A stretch of DNA of 64,000 nt. Origin: a virus. Its lineage: Duplodnaviria; Caudoviricetes. Where the stretch lies: positions 1 through 64,000 of IMG/VR virus record IMGVR_UViG_3300028381_000200. The stretch is one strand, 5' to 3'. The notes beneath the pieces are model-generated. The model was not told where the DNA came from and did not search any database. It saw nothing but the letters and a program-made list of their open reading frames with translations. Positions 6,336 through 56,895 of this stretch are shown piece by piece. The translations under genes were made by a program, and so were the position numbers. Position 1 is the first letter of the stretch, and each line of letters opens with the position of its first letter.

Positions 6336-7190
6336 TCAAGTAGCGAGAGAAAGTAAAGCCCGCTGCGGCAACGTGGGCCGAAGCCCGTCCACGGGGTCTG
6401 CGCGCCAGGCCCGTTCTTCCTTTTCGCATGGCTGAGGCACCTTTAATCCGCTGCCCCGCGCGACGGCCCCACCCTGCACCAGCTGAATCACGTCGGTGAG
6501 TGCGCCGGGTTGCCAACAATGCCCGTAGGCCGACTCCACGCCAAGCCCATCGTCCAGGTCCAGGTGGCATTCGACGGTGGAGGCGTGAAAGCCCAGCGCC
6601 GCCAGCGCTACCACGGCGGCATTCCCCGTATGGTCCGACCAGCCGACCGGCATCTCATACCGCACGGCCAGCGCAGGAATTGCCTTCAGGTTGCATTGAT
6701 CCAAGGGCGTCGGATAGCCGGACACACCGTGCAGAAGCGTAATGGGCACCCCGCCGCGCATCAACAAGCGCATGGACCGGTCAATTTCGGCGAGGGTCGC
6801 CATACCCGTACCTAACACGAGGCGTTTGCGTAGCTCGCGCACCACCTCCAACAGGCGCTCGTCGAGCATCGAATAGCTGCTGATTTTGATTTCGTCGACA
6901 TGTGGGGCCACCGTCTGTGCGCCCACCGGGTCGAAGACCGAACACGAGAACGCCAACCCATTCGCCTTCGCACGGGCGGAGAGTAACGGCAACCATTCAC
7001 TCGGCAACTGGCGGGTGCGCACGAGCCGCCGTTGCGCCGTCGCTTCCACGGCATACAAGCGGTCGGCCACGAAGTATTGAAACTTCACGCCCGTGCAGCC
7101 AATCGCCGCTGCCACGTCCACCAAGGCGCAGGCTCGCCCGAAATCGCCGTTATGGTTCGCTCCCACCTCCGCCGTGAACGTCGTCATCAT
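6336..7190 (-). CDS. N-acetylneuraminate synthase family (NeuB/PseI-like)
   Basis: AEVGANHNGD, VKFQ, KISS, GTGMAT, GWSDHT. Confidence 0.9.
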   Translation of the reverse strand: MMTTFTAEVGANHNGDFGRACALVDVAAAIGCTGVKFQYFVADRLYAVEATAQRRLVRTRQLPSEWLPLLSARAKANGLAFSCSVFDPVGAQTVAPHVDEIKISSYSMLDERLLEVVRELRKRLVLGTGMATLAEIDRSMRLLMRGGVPITLLHGVSGYPTPLDQCNLKAIPALAVRYEMPVGWSDHTGNAAVVALAALGFHASTVECHLDLDDGLGVESAYGHCWQPGALTDVIQLVQGGAVARGSGLKVPQPCEKEERAWRADPVDGLRPTLPQRALLSLAT

Positions 7191-7332: not shown

Positions 7333-8570
7333 CGCACGCTATCCTCGTAAGGGTCTCCGACCAATAACTCGGCCAGTGTGCCCTCCTTAATTCCCTCACA
7401 CACCACCGCCATGGCGTCGGCTAGGGCTGACGCCCCACTTGTGGCCTCCTGCGACGTCATCGCTGCGCTGGCGAAAATCACCGACGGGTGCACCAATTGA
7501 TTCCGCTTGGCGGCTTGCTGCGAAAACACACTGAGCGCCAACCGCTTGTCCACCGTCGGCGAAAAGTCCAGCCAGAATCTGGGCGCATGCCCGTGAATCA
7601 CCAGCGTCAAATCGTAGCGTTCGGCCACCTGAAGCAACGCCTGCTGCACGATTTCTCCGTTGCGCCACAGCGACGTAATCACCGGCTCGTCCCGGTAGAT
7701 ATCCAGCATGGCTTCGGCTGCGGCTAGGGCCAGCGCGTCGCCGCTGAACGTGCCGCTAACCGGCCAGGCGTGCTTCATCAGGTCCGACCGACCACACACG
7801 AACGCGAAGGGCAGCCCCCCGCCCAATGCTTTCCCGAACGTCGCCAGGTCCGGCATCACCCCGTAATATTTCTGCGCGCCGCCGAGGTTCATCCGCCCCC
7901 CGCACAGCATTTCGTCGAAAATCACCAGTGCGCCATACTCGTGCGCCGCCTTGACCAGCCCGTCCAAATACCCAGGCTTCGGCGGCTCCCCTTGCACCGG
8001 TTCCAGCATGACCGCTGCAACGGGATTGTCTCGGAGGATTTCAGTCAGGCGACCCAACTCGTTATACGGCACCGAGAAAATCACTTCCTCGAACTGGTCC
8101 GGCACGCCGGGGTGTTTGGGTTTCACCGCGACGAAGCCGTCATGCCACCCGTGGTAGCTGGTCTCGGTCGTGAGGATCACGTCACGCCCGGTTGCCATGC
8201 GAGCAATCCGCACCGCTGCGCTGCACGCTTCGCTCCCGGTCTTGACCACGCGCACCTGATCGGCGCAGGGAATCACCTCGCAGAGCCGGTCAGCCACCTC
8301 CTCTTCGAGCACCGACGGCAGCGAGAACAACGTGCCTTTCAACAGCTGCTTCGAGACCGCCGCCATCACGTGCGGGTGGTCATGACCCACGGCCAACGCT
8401 CCCAAGCCGCAGATCCAATCCATCAGCACACGGCCATCGCGCGTCCACACACGCGGCCCTTTCCCGCACGTCACCTGGCCCCAGACGCCAGAGGGAAACG
8501 CGCGCGGGCGCTTCGACAACGTGAACGACGCGTCCGGAATCCGGTTCAACTTCATCACGCGTGTCAGCAT
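7329..8570 (-). CDS. class III aminotransferase (GSA aminomutase-like)
   Basis: KTGSEA, YHGWHD, LIFDE-like, TFGKALGGG, SGTF. Confidence 0.9.
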   Translation of the reverse strand: MLTRVMKLNRIPDASFTLSKRPRAFPSGVWGQVTCGKGPRVWTRDGRVLMDWICGLGALAVGHDHPHVMAAVSKQLLKGTLFSLPSVLEEEVADRLCEVIPCADQVRVVKTGSEACSAAVRIARMATGRDVILTTETSYHGWHDGFVAVKPKHPGVPDQFEEVIFSVPYNELGRLTEILRDNPVAAVMLEPVQGEPPKPGYLDGLVKAAHEYGALVIFDEMLCGGRMNLGGAQKYYGVMPDLATFGKALGGGLPFAFVCGRSDLMKHAWPVSGTFSGDALALAAAEAMLDIYRDEPVITSLWRNGEIVQQALLQVAERYDLTLVIHGHAPRFWLDFSPTVDKRLALSVFSQQAAKRNQLVHPSVIFASAAMTSQEATSGASALADAMAVVCEGIKEGTLAELLVGDPYEDSVR

Positions 8571-24193: not shown

Positions 24194-24496
24194 TCACGAC
24201 AGTTCGCCCAGGACGCTGTCATCCTGCTCGTAGCCGACGACCGGCGTTTGGCCGTTCGTCGCTTTGATTTGCTGGTCCAACGTCCTGATTTCTCGCGCGA
24301 CCGTCGACACCATTTTGTCGAGCACGCGCACGTCGTAAGTCGGCTGACGCGTGGTTTCTTTGTCACCGCCCACGCCGAACCGGCGCGTGACCGTCGCGCT
24401 GTTCGCGTCGCGCAATTCGACCAGTTCCGCGTGTCGCTGGCGGAGAGTCTTCATCCAAACCAGTGCTTCGTTGACCGTGATTGTTCTCCCCGCCAT
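24194..24496 (-). CDS. DIP1984-like half-size coiled-coil protein
   Basis: TVNEAL...PTYDV...IRTLDQQIKATN resembles one DIP1984 repeat. Confidence 0.65.
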   Translation of the reverse strand: MAGRTITVNEALVWMKTLRQRHAELVELRDANSATVTRRFGVGGDKETTRQPTYDVRVLDKMVSTVAREIRTLDQQIKATNGQTPVVGYEQDDSVLGELS

Positions 24497-24501
24497 CGCT
24501 C

Positions 24502-24590
24502 ACCTCGCTTCGCTTGCTTTGCCACGCCTCGCCTAGCCGCACCGGGCCGCGCTTTGCCGTGCAATCCTCGCCTTACCTCGCCTGCTTTGA
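24502..24590 (-). ncRNA. satellite GGY-NN guide-like unit
   Basis: AGCAGGC-(NN-GGY)n-AGCAAGC; UUCG hairpin at 24594-24615 on its 5' side. Confidence 0.8.
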
Positions 24591-25235: not shown

Positions 25236-25312
25236 TGGACCACCGGGCGGGAGTCGAACCCGCAATCTCCGGGGTAGAAGCCCAGCGCATCATCCTATAA
25301 TGCTTCCGGTGG
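25236..25312 (-). tRNA. tRNA-Arg (UCU), atypical
   Basis: Full cloverleaf CCACCGG/CCGGTGG, anticodon loop CTTCTAC, TTCGACT T-loop, encoded CCA; A8/U14 and U73. Confidence 0.8.
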
Positions 25313-25317
25313 TCGAT

Positions 25318-25392
25318 ACCTTGCTTGCTTTGCTTCGCCTTGCCACGCTCTACCAGGCCATACTCCGCCGACACAGCCTCACCTGGCCTGCT
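25318..25392 (-). ncRNA. satellite GGY-NN guide-like unit
   Basis: Starts at TAG stop (TAGCAGGC), ends just before tRNA 5' end. Confidence 0.75.
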
Positions 25393-26161
25393 ACGCTTTG
25401 CCGTTGCTGCCTTTGAACACGAAGTTGAACAACTTGTCGCCGACCGTCGGCAGCTTGTCGCTCTCCAGCGATACCTCGTTTGCCCTCATTCGAGCCGCCT
25501 TGATGGCCCTACGCAGCGACTCGGCACGCTCCAACATGTCAGCTTTCTGCACGATGGTCAACGCGCTGCTCCACTCTTGTGCCGTCACCGTGCCCACCGG
25601 CACGTCTTCGGAGATGACCTGCGCCTGGCCAGGGTGCTCCGGTGTCGGCTGCAACAGCACCAGCACACGCTGTGCTTTCTTCGTGCGCTGTGTCCGCACC
25701 TCGCGCGCCTTGTAGACGCCAGCTCCAGCGTCGGGGTCCGGCACGTAACTCTTGGCCGAGTCCAGCGTCGGCGCAGCCGTCACCAGTTCTTGAATTTCAG
25801 CACTGCGTTTTTCAAGTTCGAGCAGCGCCGTCGCCGGGACGTTGGTCAACAGCACCGTGCCGTCATCCAGGACGACGTCGGCCCGTGCCTTGGTATTGGC
25901 CTCCGCCACCTGGTAACTCACGTCCAGCGCTTTGCGCCAGACGTCGGCGATCCAATCCAACTCTTTGGGCACCGTGCTTTCCAGCTCCGAGTGCTGCTCG
26001 ATCACCACCGGCATGTTCTCTTCCAGCGGCTGGAAGGCGAGAATTTTCTTTTCGAACAGGTGTCGCTTTTTTTCGAACGTGGCCCGCAGGTCGGTCCGCG
26101 TCGCCTGCGCTTGACCCTTCAGCTGACCCTCGACCGCCAACAACTCGTGCAACTTCGGCAT
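25391..26161 (-). CDS. DUF7873-like conserved phage protein
   Basis: KLHELLAVE, ARADV, VPATALLELEK, RTKK, EHPGQ, DVPVG, ARMRAN. Confidence 0.75.
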   Translation of the reverse strand: MPKLHELLAVEGQLKGQAQATRTDLRATFEKKRHLFEKKILAFQPLEENMPVVIEQHSELESTVPKELDWIADVWRKALDVSYQVAEANTKARADVVLDDGTVLLTNVPATALLELEKRSAEIQELVTAAPTLDSAKSYVPDPDAGAGVYKAREVRTQRTKKAQRVLVLLQPTPEHPGQAQVISEDVPVGTVTAQEWSSALTIVQKADMLERAESLRRAIKAARMRANEVSLESDKLPTVGDKLFNFVFKGSNGKA

Positions 26162-26962: not shown

Positions 26963-27339
26963 GCGCCCACCTTTCGTGTTGCGGCCTTCATCGCTACCGC
27001 GTGCACCAGCGCGTCCCGCAGTTTGCTTTCGATCAGCTCATACCAGTCGTTGCCCTGGAAGACGGCCAGCACCGGGCCTTCGCTCGTGCCCAGCACCTCC
27101 TGGAGCACGATGACCCGCTCCGCTGGGCGGTGCCGCAGCTTGAACTTCACGCCGCGAAACAGAAACCGCAGCTGCCGTCCGGCTGGCCCGAACGTCGCCA
27201 GCGAGTCGCGGTCGGCCAGCGTCAACGCGCACATTAAGAGCGTGCCCATAATCGGCAGGGCGTAGGACGCGTGGTGCTTGGCCTTCGCGGTCGTGTGCCG
27301 CAGGAAGCCTTGAATGTCGCCGACCGTGTCGAGTTTCAC
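26959..27339 (-). CDS. hypothetical protein
   Basis: GTGA coupling to ATPase stop. Confidence 0.6.
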   Translation of the reverse strand: MKLDTVGDIQGFLRHTTAKAKHHASYALPIMGTLLMCALTLADRDSLATFGPAGRQLRFLFRGVKFKLRHRPAERVIVLQEVLGTSEGPVLAVFQGNDWYELIESKLRDALVHAVAMKAATRKVGA

Positions 27340-28475
27340 TTGGTCACCATTTCCGGCGGTTTGAAGCCGAACGCCGGTTCCGGCGTGGCCACCGGTTGGC
27401 CCGACACCGCAGCATACAACTCGGCAATCGTCATCCGCTGGGTCACCCCAGTCGGGTCCCCGCCGTGCGCCTGGACCCACGCCTGCGAGGCGTCTTTCCC
27501 TAACGACGTAAATTCAATCTTCGACGCGCAGCGGCCAGGTCGGGCCACCGCCGGGTGCAGCTTGCCCAGCGGCTCGTTGGTGGTGATCAACACCAGCACC
27601 CGTAGCCCTTGCCCCAAGAGCCCGTCAACCAGGTTCAGGAGTCGACTCAACGCCTGCCCGACCTGTTCGCGCGCGTCCGGCACCAGCAGTTCGCCCGCGT
27701 CTTCCAGGACAATCAACCGCCAGCGCGAGTTGCCCTTGAGAGGCTCCGCCGCCTGGGCCAGGGCCACCGGCAGGTCATCCTCCTCGTCTTCTTCCTGCCC
27801 GCCGAACACGGTCTGAATCAAATACGCGACGTGCTTGCCGAAGAAGTTGTCCGGGTCCGTCACGTAGTGGAAGTCACACCAGGGCTGCCAGGCTCGGGCA
27901 AGTGCCCGCAACGCATACGTCTTGCCGGTGCCGGGCACGCCGTGCCACAGCAGCAGCTGGCCCGCGCTCGTCGGCCGAAAGGCCATTTGGTCGTTCAACT
28001 GTGCCTGCACCGGGGTCGCGTAGTTTGTCTGAATCGTCGCCCACTCCGGCACCGTAATCAGCCGCCGCAGCCGCGCCGGACCGTGCGTGGATTGATACCA
28101 GAACGTGACCGGGGTCGCGTCGGGCTTCTCGGCAATCGGTAACCGCTCCCGCCAGGCTTTGATCGTGGCCTCGACCGCCGCCAACTCATCGCCGCCGACA
28201 ATCAGTCGCACCTGCTCGTGCGCAATCGAAATTTGCACGGCACAGGTTTCGGTCAAATCCCCTGGCACGAACGCCGACTCGTCGCCGTCCTGCTCGTGGA
28301 CAATCACGCGCGACTTCGGAGCCAGCGTCGCCAACGCCGCAGGCCGCAACGTATTCCACTCTGCGCCGCGCAGGAAGCGATACTTGTTGCTCATCACTTC
28401 GTGCATGAACAGGTAGTGCGGGACACTACTCCAGCTGGTGTCCGACAACGACAGGTTCAGGTTGGGACTGGTCAT
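27336..28475 (-). CDS. AAA+ ATPase
   Basis: GVPGTGKT, IVLED, LLNLVDG, TTN, RPGR. Confidence 0.9.
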   Translation of the reverse strand: MTSPNLNLSLSDTSWSSVPHYLFMHEVMSNKYRFLRGAEWNTLRPAALATLAPKSRVIVHEQDGDESAFVPGDLTETCAVQISIAHEQVRLIVGGDELAAVEATIKAWRERLPIAEKPDATPVTFWYQSTHGPARLRRLITVPEWATIQTNYATPVQAQLNDQMAFRPTSAGQLLLWHGVPGTGKTYALRALARAWQPWCDFHYVTDPDNFFGKHVAYLIQTVFGGQEEDEEDDLPVALAQAAEPLKGNSRWRLIVLEDAGELLVPDAREQVGQALSRLLNLVDGLLGQGLRVLVLITTNEPLGKLHPAVARPGRCASKIEFTSLGKDASQAWVQAHGGDPTGVTQRMTIAELYAAVSGQPVATPEPAFGFKPPEMVTK

Positions 28476-29512
28476 TGATGATCGTCTCGCTCCGCCTTAC
28501 CCTCCGGAGCCGTGAATGCGGTCGCCACACGTGCCCACCGGCCCGCCCGGCCCGCCTTCCATTCGTAGGTCACCTGCACGAACGTGCCTAACGCGCGTGT
28601 CGCGCGTGCGGCTCCCGCCACGTCTTCGCTGTCGGTCAAATACTCGCGCTCGGACCCGCCGATGATGAACCACACCTTCCCGCTCGGGTCGTGGGCCTCG
28701 CGCACCGTCAACACCTTCTCGGGAATCGGCGGCTCCTGCTCTGGCTTCGCCTGGGGCACTGGAGGGGCCTCGGCCTCCGCCAATTCCATCAAGTTGGTGA
28801 ACGTCCGCCCGGCCCGCTGCACGTCTTCGAACCGCGCCGTCACCGGCACGTTGCGCTTGTAGACGTCCTGGGCCTTCTCCACCAGCTTCGTATCGAATGT
28901 CGTGCCCGACCGCCCGTCGCTCAACGTCACCCGCGTCGGCTTCCCTTCCCCGCCCGGCACCACACTGGCGACCTTGGCCACGCCGTCCGGCCGGACCTCT
29001 TGCACTTGCGCCTTGGCCTTCGTGCGCCCGTTGCCTTCGGTCATCTCTTCGGCCGGGGTGCCTTGATACCCGGCCAGCACCACCACCCAGGCCAGCACGT
29101 TCCGTAGCGCCTTCGCCATCGCACGGGTCTGGGCCATGCTCTTTAACTGGAACAACTCACGATCCTTCCACCTGTCTTCATCGTCCAAGCACATTGATTC
29201 GGCGGCTGTGATTTCCTGGCCGTCGCTGCGCAACGCCACGGCCCGCGCTTCGAAGCCCCTGGCCGTGCCGTATTCCACGAACCGCACTTCGCTGACCTTC
29301 GCGGTAATGCCGTAGAACCGCGCCAGGGTCATCCAGTCTTCAAATTCCAAGTAGCGCTCCCCGTTGATAATCACCGGGCGGGGCTTGGCATCGACCACCC
29401 GCTTCAACGCCACCGCCGCACGTTGCGCTTCGGCCAGCACCTCCTCCGGGGGCCGTCGCACCACCAGGTCGGCCGTCACGTCGATCACTGCCAACTCTTC
29501 GGCCATGAACAC
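28472..29512 (-). CDS. ssDNA-annealing/recombination protein
   Basis: SMAQTRA..KA and TPAEEM motifs, C-terminal OB-like segments. Confidence 0.65.
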   Translation of the reverse strand: MFMAEELAVIDVTADLVVRRPPEEVLAEAQRAAVALKRVVDAKPRPVIINGERYLEFEDWMTLARFYGITAKVSEVRFVEYGTARGFEARAVALRSDGQEITAAESMCLDDEDRWKDRELFQLKSMAQTRAMAKALRNVLAWVVVLAGYQGTPAEEMTEGNGRTKAKAQVQEVRPDGVAKVASVVPGGEGKPTRVTLSDGRSGTTFDTKLVEKAQDVYKRNVPVTARFEDVQRAGRTFTNLMELAEAEAPPVPQAKPEQEPPIPEKVLTVREAHDPSGKVWFIIGGSEREYLTDSEDVAGAARATRALGTFVQVTYEWKAGRAGRWARVATAFTAPEGKAERDDHQ

Positions 29513-29533
29513 TCCTCGTTAGAGCACCTAACG

Positions 29534-29755
29534 CTATGCCGCTGCGTTCTCCGACTCCGCCAGCTTCGTCATCGTATCGCGCGTCACGCTGTCGACCGTG
29601 TCACCGGTCAATAAACAATGTTGAATCAAGTCGCTCTTCGATTTCCCCGTTCGCTTCTCGGCCGCGCTCATTGCCAACCACGTTGACCGGTCGACGCAAT
29701 ACGAACTTAGAACTTTTTTGTTGGCATAAGCTGGTCGTCCCTTTTTCCTGGCCAT
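29534..29755 (-). CDS. ribbon-helix-helix regulator
   Basis: GRP...SSYCVD...GKSKSDLIQHCL; operator overlaps its promoter. Confidence 0.65.
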   Translation of the reverse strand: MARKKGRPAYANKKVLSSYCVDRSTWLAMSAAEKRTGKSKSDLIQHCLLTGDTVDSVTRDTMTKLAESENAAA

Positions 29756-29782
29756 TTCTGTCTCTCCCTGCGAGGCATTAGT

Positions 29783-29813
29783 AATTATTAGTTGAAGGCA
29801 CCTCACGTGTCAA
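29783..29813 (-). promoter_or_regulatory. promoter overlapped by ACTAATAATT operator
   Basis: TTGACA-17-TAATAA; motif 29783-29792. Confidence 0.6.
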
Positions 29814-29828
29814 GTCGAGTCATTAATA

Positions 29829-29855
29829 GGGCGGTGACCACAACGATCACCGCCC
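29829..29855 (-). terminator. hairpin 3' of satellite guide
   Basis: GGGCGGTGA/TCACCGCCC. Confidence 0.55.
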
Positions 29856-29920
29856 ACCTCGCTCAGCCTTGCTCAGCCCGTCCCTACTTCGCCACACCTC
29901 GCCTTACCTCGCCTGCTTTG
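29856..29920 (-). ncRNA. satellite GGY-NN guide-like unit
   Basis: CAAAGCAGGC then 11 NN slots; begins about 10 nt after upstream stop. Confidence 0.8.
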
Positions 29921-29927
29921 AATGCGG

Positions 29928-30962
29928 TCATTTCCACCTGCGCTCGACTTCGCGTTCGAGCAACGGCAGAAATTGTTCCGCGTGTGTCGGGGCGATGGTG
30001 TCCCAATTCAGTTTGCGCAACCGCGCGCAGCTTTTCGGGAACGTCGGGCGACCGGCCGCTTTGAATTTCCGGTGCGCCACGTTGGCCAGCGCGATGAGAG
30101 GTAGCACCCGCACTCGGCCTGCGCCCGCTTGCATACCGAACACCGCTGCCACCAGCTCCACGAACGCTTCCGCCCAGGCAATCATGCCCGGCACGGCCAG
30201 GGCCGCGTCGGTGCGCGGCAGCGTCTGCGTGACCATGTCGCCACCCGGCTTCGTGCCCGTGGTGACCACCAGCACACTACGCAGCAACGACGGGCCGTCC
30301 AGTGGCAGCTTGCTGTTGTTCAGCAAGTCGACCATGCCCCGCACGGGGGATTTCTCGCTGGTGGCAATCCGTCGAATGAATTGCCCGGACAGCCCCGGCC
30401 ATCCCTTGAGCACCGCCTTCGGTGTCAACTTGCGCCGACTATTGAGCGCGACGAAGAGGTTCACTTCGGCGTCCAGGCTGTCGACCTTGTGAATGAGTGC
30501 CTTCAGCGGCACCTTCACTTCGTCATGCGCCCAGAAGCGCTGCTGCCCGTCGACAATCCAGCGCGATCCGTCGCGCCGTTCGGCGATATCAATTGGGTCG
30601 GGAATGGACCCGCCCGACTTCAGCACGTGAATGAGGCTGTTGACCTCGTCGCCGATTCGGACACGCTGATAACGTTCGTCCACGTTCAGCGTTTTGAACT
30701 CCGACGGTTGGATAATAGTGACCTCGACCGCGTCGGTCACGCCGGTCACCAGCACGGGTTTGACGAGTCGCCGGGCCAGGTGCGTCGCCTGAATGGCGTC
30801 GCTGTCGGCCAGCTTGCGTTTGCCGAGAAGCGACGCAGCCGTCACCTTCGTCATGTCCTTTTTCTTCTTGGCCAGGGGGACGTCGTGCTGGCGCAAGTCG
30901 TGGCTCGAAGGCGTTGAAGTCATATTCGCCATAGCCACTTCACCGAGGGTTGTCATACTCAT
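29928..30962 (-). CDS. ParB/Srx-like domain protein
   Basis: VDERYQR, IVDGQQR, EVNLFVALN. Confidence 0.75.
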   Translation of the reverse strand: MSMTTLGEVAMANMTSTPSSHDLRQHDVPLAKKKKDMTKVTAASLLGKRKLADSDAIQATHLARRLVKPVLVTGVTDAVEVTIIQPSEFKTLNVDERYQRVRIGDEVNSLIHVLKSGGSIPDPIDIAERRDGSRWIVDGQQRFWAHDEVKVPLKALIHKVDSLDAEVNLFVALNSRRKLTPKAVLKGWPGLSGQFIRRIATSEKSPVRGMVDLLNNSKLPLDGPSLLRSVLVVTTGTKPGGDMVTQTLPRTDAALAVPGMIAWAEAFVELVAAVFGMQAGAGRVRVLPLIALANVAHRKFKAAGRPTFPKSCARLRKLNWDTIAPTHAEQFLPLLEREVERRWK

Positions 30963-31002
30963 TACTCGCTCCTGTTCTTCAGCCTTTGGGTTACTAATAA
31001 TT

Positions 31003-31401
31003 TCATTCTATCACAGTTGACGCTTTCCTCGCCTTCCGTGATCCGGGTTTGGCTTTCTGCTGCTTCACCGTGGTGACGGTTTTTTCATCGCCCCACCACT
31101 TCATAGGGTCGTGCCCCGACGAGTCCAGCAGCAGCATGGCGGTCCAGGCTAGGGCCACCCCGTGCATGCGCGGCCGAATCAACTCGAACGGCGACACGTC
31201 GAGCAACTGCGCCGACGTCTTTATGTGCTTGCGGGCCAGGTAGTCGCCCAACCGTCGGGCCGCAACGAAGTTGACGACGCCGCGTGCAGCCAGGTCGGGT
31301 TTGGTCATCGGGACCCCGTCCAGGACCACCAACGTCGTGGTATACAACTCCTCCATAAACGTTTTGCCGGTGACGCGCTTGCCGTCTTCACGGTCGATCA
31401 T
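31003..31401 (-). CDS. hypothetical protein
   Basis: GGAGCGAG RBS. Confidence 0.65.
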   Translation of the reverse strand: MIDREDGKRVTGKTFMEELYTTTLVVLDGVPMTKPDLAARGVVNFVAARRLGDYLARKHIKTSAQLLDVSPFELIRPRMHGVALAWTAMLLLDSSGHDPMKWWGDEKTVTTVKQQKAKPGSRKARKASTVIE

Positions 31402-31529
31402 TTCTCGCTCCGTTTCTTGGCGGGATAGCGGCGGGCTTTATCCCGCTCGCTATGCCGCAGCCGTTGTTCCCGCTTCAGCCGTGCTTGCTCCAGTCGCCGC
31501 TGCTTCTCTGGTCGCCGGACGGCCATGGC

Positions 31530-32240
31530 TCAAACCGCCCGGTAGTGCCCAGGCGCAGGCCGCATGGCCTTACCTCGCGCCACCAACCGGTTCAACGCGG
31601 CACGCGCATTCGACATCGAATTGGCCCCCCGACGCGGCACGTAACCCTTCTCGTCAAGCGCCGCCTTCACCTGGGAGGCGGTAATCGTGCCGTTCTCGTG
31701 CGGCAGCATAGGCTCGACCATTTCCATGAGGCCGACGTCCGCCGTGCCCCGCGCCTTGGGGAAGGTCATGGCCCGCTGGTCGCCCGCGCCGTTGGGTTTG
31801 GCCAACGCGTAGGCCCCGTCGCGGCCTCCCTTGCCATGCCGCACGGCGCGACCCTGCTTCCGAAGCCGGGCCAACGTGCTGGTCAGTTGGTTCCAGAATT
31901 TCTCCGGCAGCTTCCGCCGCAATTCCCTGGGGGTTTGCGGCACCAAGGTCAGCGCCGAGTAAATGACCTCGGTCACCGGTCCCAGGGGCGACACCTTGCC
32001 GCCACGGGCCTTGTGCCCCGCCCACCGCGCTGCGAGCGCCTTCCGAATGGCCGCTTCCTTGGCGGGGGTCATCTTCCTCCGCCAGGGCTCCGACTTGTGA
32101 TCGGCCACGTCCGGCTCGTCACCGAACAGCCCTTCGAGGGTGGCCAGCTCCACCCGCAGCTCCTTGATTCGTTTCTTGACGCCCAGCCTGGCAGCCGCCA
32201 GGACGAACGCCTGCACCTTTCGTGGAATACCTTTCATCAC
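31530..32240 (-). CDS. basic DNA-binding protein, likely two winged-helix domains
   Basis: KALAARW, LARLRKQG, LNRLVARG...GHY; own promoter. Confidence 0.7.
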   Translation of the reverse strand: MMKGIPRKVQAFVLAAARLGVKKRIKELRVELATLEGLFGDEPDVADHKSEPWRRKMTPAKEAAIRKALAARWAGHKARGGKVSPLGPVTEVIYSALTLVPQTPRELRRKLPEKFWNQLTSTLARLRKQGRAVRHGKGGRDGAYALAKPNGAGDQRAMTFPKARGTADVGLMEMVEPMLPHENGTITASQVKAALDEKGYVPRRGANSMSNARAALNRLVARGKAMRPAPGHYRAV

Positions 32241-32266
32241 TCGCTCCTTTCAACAGGGAAAACCGC

Positions 32267-32294
32267 AGTATACACCGAACTAATAATTATGCAA
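32267..32294 (-). promoter_or_regulatory. promoter with operator
   Basis: TTGCAT-16-TATACT; motif 32279-32288. Confidence 0.6.
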
Positions 32295-32295
32295 T

Positions 32296-32578
32296 GCCTA
32301 ACTTGCTTTGCCTGGCCCCACTCAACCGGGCCTCGCTCAACCAAACGTAGCCACGCCTGCTGTGCCGTGCCTTACCGTGCCGAACCGGACCTGGCCTTGC
32401 CTGTCTCAGCCTGCTTTGCCTCGCCGTCCTTGCTCCGCCTTACCAGGCTAACCAAACCTGGCCGCGCCTCGCCTGCTGTGCCTGACCTCGCCGTGCCGTC
32501 CTTACCCGACCGCACGTAGCCATGCCTGCTTTGCTCTGCCTGGCCAGTCTCGGCCAAGCCTCCCTAGCGCCGCCTGCC
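32296..32578 (-). repeat. GGY-NN array C (5 units)
   Basis: GCCTGC delimiters at 32355, 32409, 32471, 32524, 32572. Confidence 0.9.
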
Positions 32579-33124
32579 TTACATGACGGCTTGGGCGAGC
32601 GCCATCTTGCACGCCGACAAACTTTCGAGCGCAACGTGCAACGCGGCTGACCGGTCGGCCAGGTCCGGATTGGCGTCCATACGCCGCTTCAAGTGCTCGA
32701 TAAACCGCTGAAGCCCGTCCCGCTTGCCCATGGCTTCCGCGATGGCCGACGCCAACTCGTCGGCGTCCAACGTGTCGAGCGTCTTGTAGCTCTCCGCCTT
32801 CGGCACGTGAATAAAGACCGGCCGCGACGTAGTGACCGTCTCGCCTGCTGCCGCGTGGGTCACCTCGATGACTTCCACCGACCGCATCAGGTTCATGGCC
32901 TGGTTCAGCCGGTGCTGGTGCGCCGCGATTGAATCGCGCCACTCGAACGCGCCGTGCAACGGAGATGATGGTGGCGTTGCGGCCGTCACCACCACCGCCG
33001 GAGTCAGCGATCCGACTTCGTTGTGCAGGTCGGCGAGCGCCTCACCGGCCTGTTGTGCCGTCACACCTCGAATGCGTGATCCCTTCCGAAATGTGTAAGC
33101 TGAATGCTTCTGCCGCTTCGCCAT
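32579..33124 (-). CDS. partner protein of the RAMP/array locus
   Basis: LTPAVVV..A...SSPLHGAFEWRD..AA..HRL; AAAGGAGCGAGTG RBS. Confidence 0.8.
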   Translation of the reverse strand: MAKRQKHSAYTFRKGSRIRGVTAQQAGEALADLHNEVGSLTPAVVVTAATPPSSPLHGAFEWRDSIAAHQHRLNQAMNLMRSVEVIEVTHAAAGETVTTSRPVFIHVPKAESYKTLDTLDADELASAIAEAMGKRDGLQRFIEHLKRRMDANPDLADRSAALHVALESLSACKMALAQAVM

Positions 33125-33137
33125 CACTCGCTCCTTT

Positions 33138-33540
33138 CCTTGCTTGCTGTGCTCAGCCTCCCTCGCTCTGCCAAACCGTGCTCCGCCAAGCCTCGCTTGC
33201 CGTGCCGTGCCGAACCGTGCGGACCGAACCACACCTAACCGTGCCGGACCGGGCTAAGCCTGCTGTGCTCTGACTCACCGCGCCTCGCCATACCGCGCCG
33301 CGCCCAGCCGTGCTCAACGACCCTCGCCTGCTCTGCTCTACCCAACCACACCGCACTTCGCAGACCTAACCTAGCCTGCTTTGCTTTGACTGGCCACGCC
33401 GCGCCGTGCCTTGACTGACCTGGCCCGGCTTGCCTTGCTCGGCCAGGCGCGACCAAGCCGCGCCTAGCTCCGCTCGCTACGCCTGCTCGGCCTAGCCCCA
33501 CCGCGCCTCGCAAACCTCGCCTTACCGCGCCTGCTTTGCT
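33138..33540 (-). repeat. GGY-NN array B (about 7 units)
   Basis: GCCTGC delimiters at 33258, 33326, 33374, 33481, 33529 plus GCTTGC variants. Confidence 0.9.
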
Positions 33541-33552
33541 ATGATGGATGAC

Positions 33553-34275
33553 TTACGCCGCTTTCGAGACGACCGTCACCGCTGAACCGACGCTGAACAT
33601 GCCCCACTCTTGGCCAGCTGATTCTTTCGAATCTGGCCGTCCCGCACCGACGCCAACTTGCAATCCGATTCGAGAAAACAAGTTGACGACGTCTTCCTCG
33701 GTGAATTGGTCGGCGTCAAAACGCACTTTGACGTTGGCTCGCCACTCGCGGAACCGTGCCCGTGCTCGCAGGTCGGCCACGCCGGTCGCGTTGCGCACCG
33801 CTGCGATGAAGTTGTCCGGCTCACCTTCGATTCGCACCAGGCTGGTGCCGTCGGTTGAAATGCCGTCGGCCACGATGAACACCGACAGCTTGGCGAACGT
33901 CATTTTGAAGCCGACCAACCGGCACGCCGAAATCGCCGCTTGCCGGAAGGCTGACGCGTTGATGCCATACCAGCCCTCGGTCGCCACCCAGAGACTGTCC
34001 TTGAAACCAGCGTCAAAATCTTTGGCGCTGCGCTGTTTCTTCCCACGCGTGGTGCTGCCCGCCAGCTGCCCCTTCATCATTTCGGCCTGGGACGCCGGAC
34101 CGAATCGGTTGCTGACGTATTGCGTCAACGACTCGATTGGGATGATGATTTCCTTCATGTTGGGCGGGGTGATTTGCACCCGCGTCCCAGTGGTCTTCGC
34201 CGCCGGTTTACTTTCCGGCGTCGGCTCGCCCATGATCGGGTCGGCCTCTTCTGCTGCTGCCTTCGTTTTCATCAC
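33553..34275 (-). CDS. Cas7/RAMP-like RNA-binding protein
   Basis: YGINASAFRQA helix start, RNATGVADLRAR hairpin, C-terminal Gly-rich loop GLQVGVGAGRP..SAG.EWGMF; flanked by arrays. Confidence 0.7.
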   Translation of the reverse strand: MMKTKAAAEEADPIMGEPTPESKPAAKTTGTRVQITPPNMKEIIIPIESLTQYVSNRFGPASQAEMMKGQLAGSTTRGKKQRSAKDFDAGFKDSLWVATEGWYGINASAFRQAAISACRLVGFKMTFAKLSVFIVADGISTDGTSLVRIEGEPDNFIAAVRNATGVADLRARARFREWRANVKVRFDADQFTEEDVVNLFSRIGLQVGVGAGRPDSKESAGQEWGMFSVGSAVTVVSKAA

Positions 34276-34294
34276 TCGCTCCTTTTTGAAATGA

Positions 34295-35321
34295 ACCTTG
34301 CCTAGCTAACCTCGCCTCGCCAAACGTAGCCCTGCCCAGCCTGCTCTACCACGCCGTGCCTTGCCTAGCCGCACCACGCCATGCTTCGCTTTGCCTCGCC
34401 TGCTGTGCCACGCCTTGCCCCGCCGAACGTAGCCAAGCCATCCTTGCTCAGCCAAGCCAAGCCATCCACGCCTGCCGGGCCTTACTCGACCAGGCCGCAC
34501 CTAGCCGTCCTTGCCGTGACCCGCCACGCTCCGCCTTGCCTGCTGCACTTTGCCGCACCAGACCGCGCTTGGCTCATCTCCGCCAGACCCCGCCTGACCG
34601 GCTGTGCTCAGCCCCACCACACCAAGCCAGGCACTGCCCAACCTAACCTTGCCTGCTTCGCTTTGACTTGCCAGACCGCACCGCGCTTTGCCACCCTAAC
34701 TCCGCCTGCTGTGCTCAACCGCGCCGCGCCACACCGGGCCTCACTTAACCTTGCCTGCTCCACCGCGCCCGGCCGTGCCTTACCAGGCCGCGCTTTGCCC
34801 CACCTCGCCATGCCTGCTGTGCTCCGCCATACCAGGCCGGGCCGTGCCTAACTACACCCCGCCTGCTTGGCCTGACCTTGCCTCACCGTGCCGTCCATGC
34901 TCCGCCAAACCACGCCTCACCTCGCCTGCTTTGCCTGGCTCGACCGCGCCATACCCCACCGCGCCAAACCCTCCGCCCGACCTTGCCTGCTTTGCTTTGA
35001 CTTGCCGCCCCAGCCCGGCCGCGCCGCGCCATCCCGCGCCTTGCCTGCTTTGCCACGACGTGCCTAACCCCGACGTGCCACGCCCACCTAACCCCGCCGT
35101 GCTGCGCCCCGCCGTGCCTTGCTGGCTGCGCCTGGCCTTGCCTACCATTCCCTCCGCACCGAACCTTGCCTGCGTTGCTGCGCCGCTCCAGGCCGTGCCT
35201 TACTCCGCCACGCTCCGCCTGCTGTGCCCCACTCTGCCCGGCCTAGCCTTGCTTCGCCTGCTTTGCTTTGCCACACCGCACCTTACCGCACCAGACTTCA
35301 CTTAGCCTTGCTTCGCCTGCT
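34295..35321 (-). repeat. GGY-NN array A (about 1 kb, at least 16 units)
   Basis: 16 GCCTGC delimiters from 34339 to 35315; many spacings 39/49/59 (5n+4). Confidence 0.92.
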
Positions 35322-35324
35322 ACC

Positions 35325-35365
35325 GAAAAAAACGGGGCGGGCTGGTATACCCAGCTGCGCCCCGT
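35325..35365 (-). terminator. intrinsic terminator after DUF932
   Basis: ACGGGGCG...CGCCCCG followed by T7. Confidence 0.75.
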
Positions 35366-35370
35366 CATCC

Positions 35371-36465
35371 TTACGCCGCTTCCGCAATCTTCGACCAGTC
35401 CTTCGGAGCCAGCGCCATCACTTCGCCGCCCGCCCGTTCGAGCGCCGTCGTGATTTCGTAATCGGCTTCGAGCACGTTGGCCGTCGCCGTGATTGCACTC
35501 GACAGCCCCCACTGACTCAGGTCGCCACCCGCCGCCAGCGCCTTGAGAATCCCGTTGCTCGCGCGCTCCGGGAGGCTCAGCACTTCAATCGTGGCTTCGA
35601 CCACCGCAGGCAGGTTGTCGCTTTGAATCACCTGACCCTGCGCTTGGCGAATTTGCGTGATTGCCTTCTTGAAGGTGTCTTCGTTGAAGGCAGCCATCGT
35701 GACGTCCCGAACCTTGAGCCAAAAAGCCGCGTCGTCGGCTCGCCTGGTCTCATCCTTGAAGACCTCGTAACCCTCGTCGGCGCTATTCGCGCGCCCGACG
35801 TGGTATTTCTTCATCGCCGCCTGCGCGACAATCGCCAGGTTCGTGCAGCGCGTGGTGAACACCGAAGGTTCGACCCTCAGCGTGCCCGCGCCGACGTCGC
35901 TGTTCGAAATCACGATTGCAGCGACCAACCGGCTGTCCTTCATGATATGGTGCTCGTGCCCCGCCATCCTCATGTCGACCAACTCTGCATCGCTGAGCCC
36001 CGGCAGAATGCCCTTGATATAGAGTCGGGTTTCGGTCAGCTCGCTGGACATGACTTTCACGCCCGCCTTGAGCAACGTCGGGAGCACCGCGTTGGCCAAG
36101 TCGAAGTTGTCGAGCGCCCGAAACTTCGGGCTGAGAAACGCGCGCACCTTGCCGTCCAAGGTTCTCAGCATGCGTCTTTCATCTTTCGCCGCGTGCAACC
36201 AGGTGTTCAGGTTTTGCGCGAGCAGCTCCGGCTGTTCGGCGCGCATGCGGTCGAAATATTGCTTGGGAATCCCCAAATGTTGAGCGAACTGCCCGTGGGC
36301 GTAGTTCGTCACCGCGAAGGGGGTGTGATTGATCCCGTCGAGCACCACTTCGCCGTCCTTGACCACGGCTTCGATTTTGCCCTGGGGCGCGATGTAGTCC
36401 TGCCGGGAGTTGGCTTGCCGCTCCAGTTCGGCGGCAATGTCCTGAAGGCTGCGTCCTGCTCTCAT
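35371..36465 (-). CDS. DUF932-family phage protein
   Basis: RAFLS..FRALDN, ISNSDVGAG, CTNLAI. Confidence 0.85.
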   Translation of the reverse strand: MRAGRSLQDIAAELERQANSRQDYIAPQGKIEAVVKDGEVVLDGINHTPFAVTNYAHGQFAQHLGIPKQYFDRMRAEQPELLAQNLNTWLHAAKDERRMLRTLDGKVRAFLSPKFRALDNFDLANAVLPTLLKAGVKVMSSELTETRLYIKGILPGLSDAELVDMRMAGHEHHIMKDSRLVAAIVISNSDVGAGTLRVEPSVFTTRCTNLAIVAQAAMKKYHVGRANSADEGYEVFKDETRRADDAAFWLKVRDVTMAAFNEDTFKKAITQIRQAQGQVIQSDNLPAVVEATIEVLSLPERASNGILKALAAGGDLSQWGLSSAITATANVLEADYEITTALERAGGEVMALAPKDWSKIAEAA

Positions 36466-36541
36466 GATTCACTGGTCCTTTTCCCCTCGGTCTCCGGCGG
36501 TATGCCGGTCTCACGAGGCTTTCGAGTCATCCAACGAAGGG

Positions 36542-36571
36542 ATTGTCTCACAAACTAATAATTCGTGTCAA
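36542..36571 (-). promoter_or_regulatory. promoter with operator
   Basis: TTGACA-18-GACAAT; motif 36554-36563. Confidence 0.65.
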
Positions 36572-36574
36572 CCC

Positions 36575-36775
36575 CTATTTTTCGAGCAGGTCCAACAGGG
36601 TCCTGGGCTCATCTTTGTCGGTCCAGGCCGCAGGCAGGCCCGCCGCCTTGCGGACCCGGCGGATCATTTCGAGCCAGAGGTGGTTGTCGGCCCCGGCCTC
36701 GGCCAGGTCGGTGAGCAGCTGGGGCAACCGCTCGTCGCCCACCGCCTCGCGCAGCACCTCGGCCACCGCTTTCAT
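36575..36775 (-). CDS. hypothetical protein
   Basis: ATGA coupling, GGAGG RBS. Confidence 0.6.
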   Translation of the reverse strand: MKAVAEVLREAVGDERLPQLLTDLAEAGADNHLWLEMIRRVRKAAGLPAAWTDKDEPRTLLDLLEK

Positions 36776-37107
36776 TCGGACCTCCGGGGGATAATGGTGA
36801 CCACGTTCGAGACCTGGGGCAGCACGGCCAGGGCGTTGCTGCCCATAATCTCCAAGCCCTCCTCATTGGCGTAAACGTCGAAGCGCTCCCGGTTGATTGT
36901 AAATTCCAAGCGGGTGCCATCGGCCAGATAGGTGCTGCCGTCGTCGAGGTTCCCATCTGGGCCAGCCCGCAGATAGTTCTTAATCCGGATACTGGTCTTC
37001 ACGGTCGTGGGCGCGTCGCGCTTCAAGGTGGCGACCTGGTCTTCGAGCGCCTGGACGTAGTCCTTGAAGCGTCGGGGGAGCGCGTCGTAGCCGTCAGGTC
37101 GGGTCAT
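36772..37107 (-). CDS. hypothetical protein
   Basis: ATGA coupling. Confidence 0.65.
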   Translation of the reverse strand: MTRPDGYDALPRRFKDYVQALEDQVATLKRDAPTTVKTSIRIKNYLRAGPDGNLDDGSTYLADGTRLEFTINRERFDVYANEEGLEIMGSNALAVLPQVSNVVTIIPRRSE

Positions 37108-56800: not shown

Positions 56801-56895
56801 GTCGGGACGCCATCAAAGCAAAGCAGGCGTGGCTTGGCAAAGCTGGGTTTAGCGCGGTGTGGCTCGGCGAGGCGAAGCAGGCAACGCGTCCCGAC
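56801..56895 (+). ncRNA. satellite GGY-NN guide-like unit inside a 10-bp inverted repeat
   Basis: AGCAGGC at 56822 and 56876; GTCGGGACGC/GCGTCCCGAC flanks; antisense to tail operon. Confidence 0.8.

What the first reader, a model, noticed from the sequence alone, without database searches (positions are those of the whole stretch)
33481..34026. First guide after the RAMP gene matches the RAMP gene family itself
Unit 33481-33535 slots GC AA GA (T) GA GC GG TA CG are compatible with A-K-D-F-D-A-G-Y-R. The own gene has GCC AAA GAT TTT GAC GCT GGT TTC AAG (A-K-D-F-D-A-G-F-K, 34000-34026). 14/17 match with the first seven slots perfect. Either a counter-measure against the same system in rivals or negative autoregulation.
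Basis: partly seen in the sequence, partly recalled or inferred. Interest (0 to 1): 0.85.

Follow-up and report, generated by a model that had tools for sequence, protein, structure and literature searches.

The report
Phage VIPR guide aimed at vipr genes
A soil phage carries a recently described RNA-guided silencing system (VIPR), and the first guide after its guide-binding protein gene spells a short stretch of that same gene family, fitting a relative's version better than the phage's own copy.

Summary
On the minus strand, 33535->33481 reads AGCAGGC, then nine NN slots (GC AA GA TT GA GC GG TA CG) separated by GGY scaffolds. The first seven slots equal codon positions 1-2 of AKDFDAG in the adjacent gene (34026->34000); 15 of 18 letters match overall.

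The locus is a VIPR system, described in 2026 preprints. VIPR has a minimal RAMP protein (Vipr) and GGY/NN guide RNAs that read DNA two bases on, one base (the wobble) skipped, and silence transcription. The 239-aa gene folds like Cas7/Csm3 and its family profile hits the solved SUSP1 Vipr. Same-strand arrays accompany homologues in 67 of 83 viral and 23 of 29 genomic loci.

The own-gene match alone is weak (P=0.063 per guide genome-wide). But all nine slots fit AKDFDAGYR in homologue P0002, whereas 0 of 200 shuffles gave a run of 8 or more over 121 family proteins.

The phage's own allele differs at the two 3'-most slots (Y->F, R->K). I read it as a guide against close relatives' vipr genes that spares its own copy (about 0.65). 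Autoregulation is less likely: 60 of 61 relatives have no comparable self-match.

Vipr-targeting guides are already published, so this is a new member of a known kind.

The parts
33481..33535 (-). Focal vrRNA unit: 5' AGCAGGC, nine NN slots (GC AA GA TT GA GC GG TA CG) between GGY scaffolds, one irregular 4-nt unit after slot 4, then the next AGCAGGC
   Evidence: same letters in an independent run's contig
34000..34026 (-). Matched site in the phage's own vipr gene (codons AKDFDAGFK); 15 of 18 informative letters, with the skipped base at the wobble position
   Evidence: site identical in contigs of runs X3, X4 and X5
33553..34272 (-). vipr gene (239 aa, minimal RAMP; phrog_4652, no Pfam family)
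33130..33545 (-). Array A2 (about 80 slots) between vipr and the next gene; the focal guide is its first unit
34290..35330 (-). Array A1 (about 210 slots, about 17 units) upstream of vipr, downstream of a terminator-like hairpin
32310..32578 (-). Array A3 (about 55 slots) after the 181-aa gene
32579..33124 (-). 181-aa gene (phrog_15946), conserved partner of vipr in L008, L009, L010, Cy-LDV1 and Quico; candidate vipr-accessory (vap) gene
31530..32237 (-). 235-aa gene with a C-terminal AbiEi_4-type helix-turn-helix; excisionase-like genes hold this position in Cy-LDV1 and Quico
29850..29921 (-). Solo vrRNA-like unit (12 slots) followed by a hairpin
24495..24590 (-). Solo vrRNA-like unit (13 slots)
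25305..25396 (-). Solo vrRNA-like unit (12 slots)
56818..56895 (+). Solo vrRNA-like unit (10 slots) on the other strand, enclosed by a 10-nt inverted repeat

Best explanation
The locus is a phage VIPR system. Vipr protomers (the 239-aa RAMP) line up along a guide RNA, each holding a GGY and exposing the next NN. The NN pairs read double-stranded DNA two bases on, one base off, so the skipped base falls on codon wobble positions. Binding silences transcription. All of this is established for SUSP1 and P. fulva VIPR and is inferred here.

The first guide downstream of vipr spells AKDFDAGYR in this code. That is the version of a conserved Vipr segment found in the phage's closest relatives. Its most likely job is to silence the vipr operon of closely related competing phages.

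The phage's own copy carries two conservative replacements (Y->F, R->K) at the two 3'-most slots. These remove 3 of the last 4 informative letters and probably spare it from its own guide. That sparing is inference.
For: System identity:
- The family profile hits the solved SUSP1 Vipr, 36pp_D, E=2.7e-4. The thumb R138 and G-loop R179 align to invariant R171 and R212.
- The AlphaFold model has pLDDT 81.2. Its top Foldseek hits are Csm3/Cas7 RAMPs at probability 0.99-1.00.
- The four main arrays hold 357 slots, 317 with an RGY scaffold (GGC 163, GGT 73, AGC 69).
- Same-strand arrays sit beside homologues in 67 of 83 viral loci and 23 of 29 genome loci.
- The published code and mechanism were read.

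The guide itself:
- 7 exact slots in frame in the own gene.
- 9 of 9 slots fit P0002 and 8 fit P0070, while 0 of 200 shuffles gave a run of 8 or more over 121 proteins.
- The best DNA-level hit among 84 related loci is the homologous site of the closest relative, L015/L008, at 16/18. Four of 200 shuffled guides reach that, and P=0.01.
- The slots are specific to the close clade: K at slot 2 in 16 of 121 proteins and G at slot 7 in 7 of 121.
- In the close clade of 10 sequences (own included), 8 have Y at slot 8 and 7 have Y-R. Only own and P0001 have F-K, so F-K looks derived.

Support from relatives and from print:
- Relatives' guides hit other vipr genes in the wobble register more than shuffles do: 8 windows at 16/18 or more against 2.8 +/- 1.9, reached by 7 of 504 shuffles.
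- Self-matches are rare: 1 of 61 loci.
- Published precedent: vrRNAs that target other VIPR systems, and guides whose self score is lower than their non-self score.
- In SUSP1, engagement starts at the 3' end of the guide.
Against: - No perfect DNA target was found. The 18-letter pattern has 0 hits in IMG/VR. It has 10 hits in JGI metagenomes, none in a vipr-like frame.
- P0002 is known only as protein. If its Arg codon is AGR, the DNA match would be 17/18, not 18/18.
- By the published score the own-gene hit has P=0.063 genome-wide, among 27 guides tested. A 7-slot run somewhere in the window occurs in 15% of shuffles.
- The match was chosen after the fact.
- The guide has a defective 4-nt unit in its middle. 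In 'staggered' arrays such a register shift might be a boundary between two short RNAs rather than a tolerated defect.
- The Vipr here is only distantly related to SUSP1 Vipr. The match covers 46 residues, and the D177 and W178 equivalents are A/E and G. The rules are therefore transferred, not shown.
- There are no expression data.
Confidence: 0.65

Rival explanations
1. Chance. The arrays are genuine VIPR guides, but this unit's resemblance to vipr is a coincidence among about 350 slots and many possible targets. Its real target lies elsewhere or it is a decaying unit.
For: - Genome-wide per-guide P=0.063, with 27 guides tested.
- 15% of shuffles give a 7-slot run somewhere in the window.
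- 20 of 500 shuffles reach 15/18 against the own gene.
- The guide has an irregular 4-nt unit in the middle.
- No perfect DNA target in two large collections.
- The other guides find nothing convincing in the own record.
Against: - The run is in the codon register, in the adjacent gene, and extends to 9 of 9 in a real homologue. None of 200 shuffles reach a run of 8 over 121 proteins.
- The two extra slots (TA, CG) equal the majority residues Y and R of the close clade.
- The best DNA hit in 84 loci is the homologous site of the nearest relative.
- Relatives show a modest excess of vipr-directed guides.
Confidence: 0.2
2. Negative autoregulation. The guide binds the phage's own vipr coding region despite three mismatches and damps transcription of vipr, array A2, the 181-aa gene and array A3.
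For: - 15/18 = 0.83 is above the 0.8 identity that the published work uses to call natural targets.
- It is the highest self score of the 27 guides.
- The site lies inside the operon that encodes the guide itself.
- Published VIPR silences from within coding regions on either strand.
Against: - The design is not conserved: 60 of 61 relatives with arrays have no guide at 15/18 or more to their own vipr, the same as after shuffling.
- The published sets found no self hits at 0.8 or more.
- The mismatches cluster at the 3' end, where engagement starts in SUSP1.
- The guide fits other alleles better than self.
Confidence: 0.12

Closest known systems
VIPR systems (Vipr + vrRNA), bioRxiv 10.64898/2026.04.26.720920 and 10.64898/2026.04.26.720927
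   Same: - A phage-encoded minimal RAMP flanked by same-strand arrays of GGY/NN pentamers.
- A two-gene core: vipr plus a small partner gene.
- Guide slots that match coding DNA with the wobble base skipped.
- Units of 9-13 slots, within the published 9-16.
   Different: - The protein is only distantly related to the characterised SUSP1 type II Vipr: E=2.7e-4 over 46 residues, with the D177 and W178 equivalents not conserved.
- There is no long 3' tail or pseudoknot between units.
- Units abut through a 7-nt AGCAGGC with a 1-nt register shift. This resembles the 'staggered arrays' named in the legend of fig. S18, which I read only as a legend.
- Arrays are very long, about 1.7 kb in all, with four more solo units elsewhere in the record.
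- I could not assign a type number because the supplements are closed.
vipr-targeting vrRNAs: P. fulva-clade guides against other VIPR systems, and solo vrRNAs of SUSP1-like phages (bioRxiv 10.64898/2026.10.15.759431, section 8)
   Same: A phage guide whose NN code matches a vipr coding sequence, with a lower score to self than to relatives. It is read as warfare between related VIPR-bearing elements.
   Different: - Here the carrier is itself VIPR-positive, and the guide sits directly after its own vipr.
- The self score (0.83) is above the 0.8 cut-off at which the published sets reported no self hits.
- Self and non-self differ by two conservative amino-acid replacements at the guide's 3' end.
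Class 1 CRISPR backbone RAMPs (Cas7/Csm3)
   Same: Fold: the top Foldseek hits are Csm3 chains of type III-A complexes. A protein filament on a guide RNA with periodic base flipping.
   Different: - No CRISPR repeat-spacer array.
- No Cas family among the 10 neighbouring proteins scanned.
- The guide is gapped, 2 of every 5 letters, rather than contiguous with every sixth base flipped.

Membership tests
VIPR system | Vipr protein: small single-RRM RAMP with G-loop and thumb | tested here: met
   The profile of 34 family members hits PDB 36pp_D 'SUSP1 Vipr protein', E=2.7e-4. R138 and R179 align to invariant R171 and R212. The AF2 model has pLDDT 81.2 and pTM 0.75. Foldseek gives 44 PDB hits at E<=0.001, and the top ones are Csm3/Cas7. 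The match to Vipr itself is short (46 residues).
VIPR system | vrRNA: at least 4, typically 9-16, tandem YNNGG/GGYNN units flanking vipr on the same strand | tested here: met
   357 slots in four arrays, 317 with an RGY scaffold. Units of 7-14 slots lie between AGCAGGC marks, plus a few longer runs where the mark is degenerate.
VIPR system | Array and protein travel together across homologues | tested here: met
   67 of 83 IMG/VR loci and 23 of 29 genome loci have same-strand arrays. Cy-LDV1 and mycobacteriophage Quico have them too.
VIPR system | NN slots specify targets by the 1-nt-skip rule, mostly in codon register | tested here: inconclusive
   For: the focal guide; one A1 guide matching 8 of 8 slots in frame in an ORF of L078; and an excess of wobble-register hits on vipr genes among relatives, reached by 7 of 504 shuffles. 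Against: 24 of the 27 guides found no target at shuffle P<=0.03 in the 1.3 Mb searched, the exceptions being the focal guide and two guides hitting L078. There is no overall excess in the window.
VIPR system | vipr-accessory (vap) gene next to vipr | tested here: inconclusive
   The 181-aa gene (phrog_15946) follows vipr in L008, L009, L010, Cy-LDV1 and Quico. It has no Pfam hit and no PDB hit better than E=0.33. Homology to vap1-6 could not be checked because the sequences are in supplements I could not open.
VIPR system | vrRNAs are expressed, processed and bound by Vipr; the complex silences targets | not testable with these tools
   No RNA run holds the locus.
VIPR type II (SUSP1 / P. fulva) | About 100-nt vrRNAs, each ending in a conserved structured 3' tail (pseudoknot) | tested here: not met
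   Units of 39-63 nt follow one another directly, separated only by AGCAGGC. There are no Rfam matches in 29000-37000. The locus is therefore not filed as type II.
CRISPR-Cas (type III-like) | Repeat-spacer array and cas gene set | tested here: not met
   Tandem Repeats Finder reports no array with a period above 24 nt in the window. No Cas Pfam family was found in the 10 neighbouring proteins.

The most novel reading that the evidence does not exclude
The guide and the phage's own altered vipr allele form a poison-and-antidote pair. A VIPR-positive phage keeps a guide against the ancestral sequence of its own effector gene, and so disarms close kin that co-infect. Its own copy escaped through the only route the wobble-blind code allows: two conservative amino-acid changes (Y->F, R->K) at the 3' end of the guide, where engagement begins. 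If true, this locus would be a natural experiment. It would locate the mismatch-sensitive end of the guide and show how self is told from non-self in a VIPR type that has not been characterised.
Probability: 0.35. Interest if true: 0.6.

Novelty: new member of a known kind. Interest (0 to 1): 0.4.

Why it matters
VIPR was described only in 2026, and its biology is known from two E. coli and Pseudomonas clades. This locus differs in several ways:
- It comes from a soil or rhizosphere phage.
- It belongs to a very large, unannotated Vipr family: 5,606 hits, none with a Pfam domain.
- Its arrays have a different, contiguous architecture.

The focal guide is a concrete, testable case of VIPR-against-VIPR conflict in which self and non-self differ by three letters at one end of the guide. 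Testing it would show whether the published targeting rules, the identity cut-off and the 3'-to-5' engagement carry over to this type. It does not change the picture already in print.

Tried and rejected
Ideas considered and dropped:
- Before finding the VIPR papers I considered a TRAP-like ring protein binding 11 x 5-nt repeats, two-tetrad G-quadruplexes, R-loop-forming switch-region-like DNA, a centromere for the ParB-like gene, and translated Arg/Gly-rich repeats. All were dropped once the protein profile hit the solved Vipr and the papers were read.
- Rfam gave nothing in 29000-37000.

Searches for a perfect target:
- The exact 18-letter pattern found 0 hits in IMG/VR.
- It found 10 hits in JGI metagenome contigs, none in a vipr-like reading frame.
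- The genome-contig scan with the close-clade alignment found only relatives at 52% identity or less. The guide matched none of them above 14/18.
- A scan with P0002 returned the L008 contig again, at 77%.
- The DNA of P0002 and P0070 could not be obtained because the tool that returns encoding contigs is closed.

Other dead ends:
- Guide-by-guide target search of 27 guides in 1.3 Mb of related loci plus the own record: only the focal guide (P=0.01) and two borderline hits in L078 (P=0.02 and 0.03) stood out.
- A first survey of relatives' arrays against 76 vipr genes, without separating registers, showed no excess: 9 windows at 16/18 against 6-14 in five shuffles. The excess appeared only when the wobble register was taken alone.
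- Expression: no RNA holder was listed for the locus, so processing and RNA ends could not be examined.
- Contigs of runs X3 and X4 leave parts of the arrays uncovered. I draw nothing from those holes.
- Supplementary files were not requested because they are closed. The type assignments (data S4, figs S16-S18) and the natural-target tables (data S3; Supplementary Tables 12-18 of the October preprint) may already list this family or similar vipr-directed guides.

Full report
**What is in the sequence.** The window is the first 64 kb of a 102,060-nt IMG/VR virus record with 62% G+C. Around the finding all genes lie on the minus strand.

Three long intergenic stretches are built from pentamers of the form NN-GGY when read on the minus strand: 35330->34290, 33545->33130 and 32578->32310. 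They are cut into units of mostly 39-63 nt by the motif AGCAGGC. A dynamic-programming parse gives 357 two-letter slots in these arrays plus a small one at 29921->29850. Of these, 317 are followed by an RGY scaffold (GGC 163, GGT 73, AGC 69).

The array order is: a terminator-like hairpin after a 364-aa gene; array A1; a 239-aa gene (33553-34272); array A2; a 181-aa gene (32579-33124); array A3; then a 235-aa gene with a C-terminal helix-turn-helix. Each of the three genes is preceded by the same AAGGAGCGAGTGATG leader.

**The observation.** The unit at 33535->33481 is the first of array A2 and starts 17 nt after the stop codon of the 239-aa gene. Its slots read GC AA GA TT GA GC GG TA CG.

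The gene has GCC AAA GAT TTT GAC GCT GGT TTC AAG at 34026->34000. Seven consecutive slots therefore equal codon positions 1-2, and 15 of 18 letters agree.

The scaffold after slot 4 is GC instead of GGY, which makes a 4-nt unit. A contig from a different run carries the same letters over 33367-33645. Contigs of three runs carry the same target site.

**What the system is.** The 239-aa protein has no Pfam family and belongs to phrog_4652, of unknown function. A database search found 5,606 relatives, none with a Pfam domain.

A profile of 34 of them hits one solved structure, 36pp_D 'SUSP1 Vipr protein', with E=2.7e-4 over residues 135-180. The SUSP1 residues R138 and R179 fall on columns that are invariant in this family. 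D177 and W178 fall on E/A and G.

The AlphaFold model (pLDDT 81.2) finds Csm3/Cas7 backbone RAMPs of type III, type VII and Craspase complexes at probability 0.99-1.00, with TM-scores of only 0.3-0.5.

A literature search on 'Vipr' led to three 2026 preprints, of which I read the result and method sections named here:
- 10.64898/2026.04.26.720920, sections 4, 10, 20 and 27.
- 10.64898/2026.04.26.720927, sections 4 (part 1), 8 and 9.
- 10.64898/2026.10.15.759431, sections 8, 17, 25 and 26 plus passages.

A fourth preprint, 10.64898/2026.10.21.760802, was read as passages only.

They describe VIPR as follows:
- A phage-encoded minimal RAMP, Vipr, polymerises on a vrRNA made of alternating GGY and NN.
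- The GGY bases are held by the protein.
- The NN pairs read DNA with one base skipped between pairs. That skipped base falls mostly on codon wobble positions.
- Either strand can be targeted, no PAM-like motif is needed, and binding silences transcription.

The pentamer arrays, the two-gene core and the phage setting here fit that description.

The association is conserved. Same-strand arrays lie beside homologues in 67 of 83 IMG/VR loci and 23 of 29 loci from species-representative genomes of many phyla. They are also present in Cyanophage Cy-LDV1 and upstream of gp57 of mycobacteriophage Quico.

The arrays here lack the long structured 3' tail of the characterised type II systems. Units abut with a 1-nt register shift at AGCAGGC, which resembles the 'staggered arrays' mentioned in a figure legend. 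I cannot give a type number because the supplements are closed.

**Is the match more than chance?** The evidence taken narrowly is mixed.
- Against the own gene in frame, none of 500 slot shuffles reaches a run of 7. By the letter-identity measure, 20 of 500 reach 15/18.
- Over the whole window in six frames, a 7-slot run is expected 0.17 times and appears in 15% of 300 shuffles. Runs of 6 are not enriched: 4 observed against 2.7 expected.
- I scored all 27 guides of 8-14 slots against the whole record as the published work does. The focal guide has the highest self identity (0.83) and its best hit is exactly the vipr site. Shuffled versions do as well in 6.3% of 300 trials.

Taken alone, then, the own-gene match is not secure.

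The family comparison changes this.
- Among 121 family proteins (own plus the 120 listed), P0002 (62% identical) reads AKDFDAGYR at the homologous site, so all nine slots fit. P0070 fits eight.
- In 200 shuffles, the longest run over all 121 proteins was 5 in 111 shuffles, 6 in 80 and 7 in 9, and never 8.
- The slots are specific to the close clade: K at slot 2 in 16 of 121 proteins, A at slot 6 in 26, G at slot 7 in 7.
- In the ten closest sequences (own included), Y occupies slot 8 in eight and Y-R occupies the last two slots in seven. Only the own gene and its 95%-identical relative P0001 have F-K.
- At the DNA level, the best hit among 84 related loci is the homologous site of the nearest relative with DNA in hand, L015 (the L008 contig), at 16/18. 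Four of 200 shuffled guides reach that, and P=0.01.

Results against this reading:
- The exact 18-letter pattern is absent from IMG/VR.
- Its 10 occurrences in JGI metagenome contigs are not in vipr genes.
- P0002's codons are unknown.

**Do other loci show the pattern?**
- A first survey used 116 arrays (5,163 slots, 4,235 nine-slot windows) from relatives against 76 distinct vipr genes. It showed no excess of near-matches when all registers were pooled: 9 windows at 16/18 against 6-14 in five shuffles.
- Counting only the wobble register gave 54 windows at 15/18 or more, against 38.9 +/- 8.2 (reached by 20 of 504 shuffles). It gave 8 windows at 16/18 or more, against 2.8 +/- 1.9 (reached by 7 of 504). 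Other registers were, if anything, depleted.
- All the listed hits were to other phages' genes.
- Self-matches are rare. In 61 loci with arrays and distinct vipr genes, the best self score is 12-13 in most and reaches 15 in only one, the same as after shuffling.

So vipr-directed guides recur weakly in this family, and targeting one's own copy is not a family habit.

**Mechanism proposed.**
- Shown elsewhere and transferred here: Vipr protomers bind the GGY scaffolds. The nine NN pairs read the template strand of a vipr gene, because the guide has the sense of the coding strand. A filament forms and transcription of the vipr operon is blocked.
- Inferred: the intended target is the AKDFDAGYR-type allele of close relatives that compete for the same host.
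- Inferred: the carrier is spared because its own allele differs at the last two slots (TAY CGN -> TTC AAG, 3 of 4 letters). The code ignores wobble bases, so only amino-acid changes can break a match, and Y->F and R->K are about the mildest available.
- In SUSP1, protomers and pairing build up from the 3' end of the guide towards the 5' end. Mismatches at the 3' end would therefore hit the start of engagement. Whether that holds for this type is untested.
- The irregular 4-nt unit in the middle of the guide is an unresolved weakness. The match runs across it in continuous register on the target, which argues that it is tolerated if the match is real.

**Comparison with what is known, and novelty.** The system is VIPR, already described. 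[quoted passage not shown]

What is particular to this locus:
- A distant Vipr clade with contiguous arrays.
- A VIPR-positive carrier.
- A self score just above the 0.8 cut-off at which the published sets reported no self hits.
- A clean two-residue difference between self and the apparent target.

That makes it a new member of a known kind with a good experimental handle, not a new principle.

**Verdict.** Confidence is 0.65 that this is a genuine guide directed at close relatives' vipr genes with the own copy spared, 0.20 for coincidence and 0.12 for autoregulation. Interest is 0.4.

Noticed in passing
window 24495-24590(-), 25305-25396(-), 29850-29921(-), 56818-56895(+): Four solitary vrRNA-like units (10-13 slots, each starting with AAGCAGGC) lie far from the vipr locus, one of them on the opposite strand. 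The one at 56818-56895 is enclosed by a 10-nt inverted repeat (GTCGGGACGC ... GCGTCCCGAC). The one at 29850-29921 is followed by a hairpin.
   Followed up: partly
window 35042-35003(-) and L078 460-483: A guide in array A1 (AA GC AT GC GC CG CT GC) matches 8 of 8 slots in frame inside a 101-aa ORF (MDDFNAIAARLAE...) about 3 kb upstream of vipr in a related phage contig. I extrapolate about 0.02 such exact 8-slot runs by chance in the 1.3 Mb searched, scaling. The ORF has no homologue in the own record or in the other loci.
   Followed up: partly
L012 (NC_028751.1, Mycobacterium phage Quico) 3560-3880; L011 (BK059895.1, Cyanophage Cy-LDV1) 6650-6860 and 7455-7625: Two named, deposited phages carry clean GGC/NN arrays with GGCAGGC punctuation next to 'hypothetical' homologues of this vipr (Quico gp57; Cy-LDV1 g34). 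Cluster F mycobacteriophages would be a tractable host-phage system for this VIPR family. 'Mycobacter' does not occur in the main text of the discovery preprint; the supplements were not seen.
   Followed up: partly
proteins P0110 and P0032: Some database gene models extend vipr upstream through the array. This gives artificial Arg/Gly/Ala-rich N-terminal extensions (for example ...GKARPGEAGQGRQGEARRG...). It is an annotation artefact to watch for in this family.
   Followed up: no
window 34749-35144: A contig from another run (X5) aligns to array A1 with 7 substitutions and 51 gap letters (indels of 1-12 nt). The contigs of runs X3, X4 and X5 that cover the matched vipr site are letter-identical to the window there. 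The arrays therefore vary between samples much faster than the vipr gene.
   Followed up: no
window 34272-34289, 33124-33141, 32237-32254 (minus strand): The same leader AAGGAGCGAGTGATG (Shine-Dalgarno, then GTG ATG) precedes vipr, the 181-aa gene and the 235-aa gene. By eye, a TTGCAT ... TATACT promoter-like pair lies at about 32262-32290, after array A3. The consensus scan did not list it.
   Followed up: no
window 27336-28475(-) and 29928-30962(-): Downstream neighbours include a DUF5925 + AAA ATPase protein (379 aa) and a ParB-like protein (344 aa). Their relation to the VIPR module is unknown.
   Followed up: no
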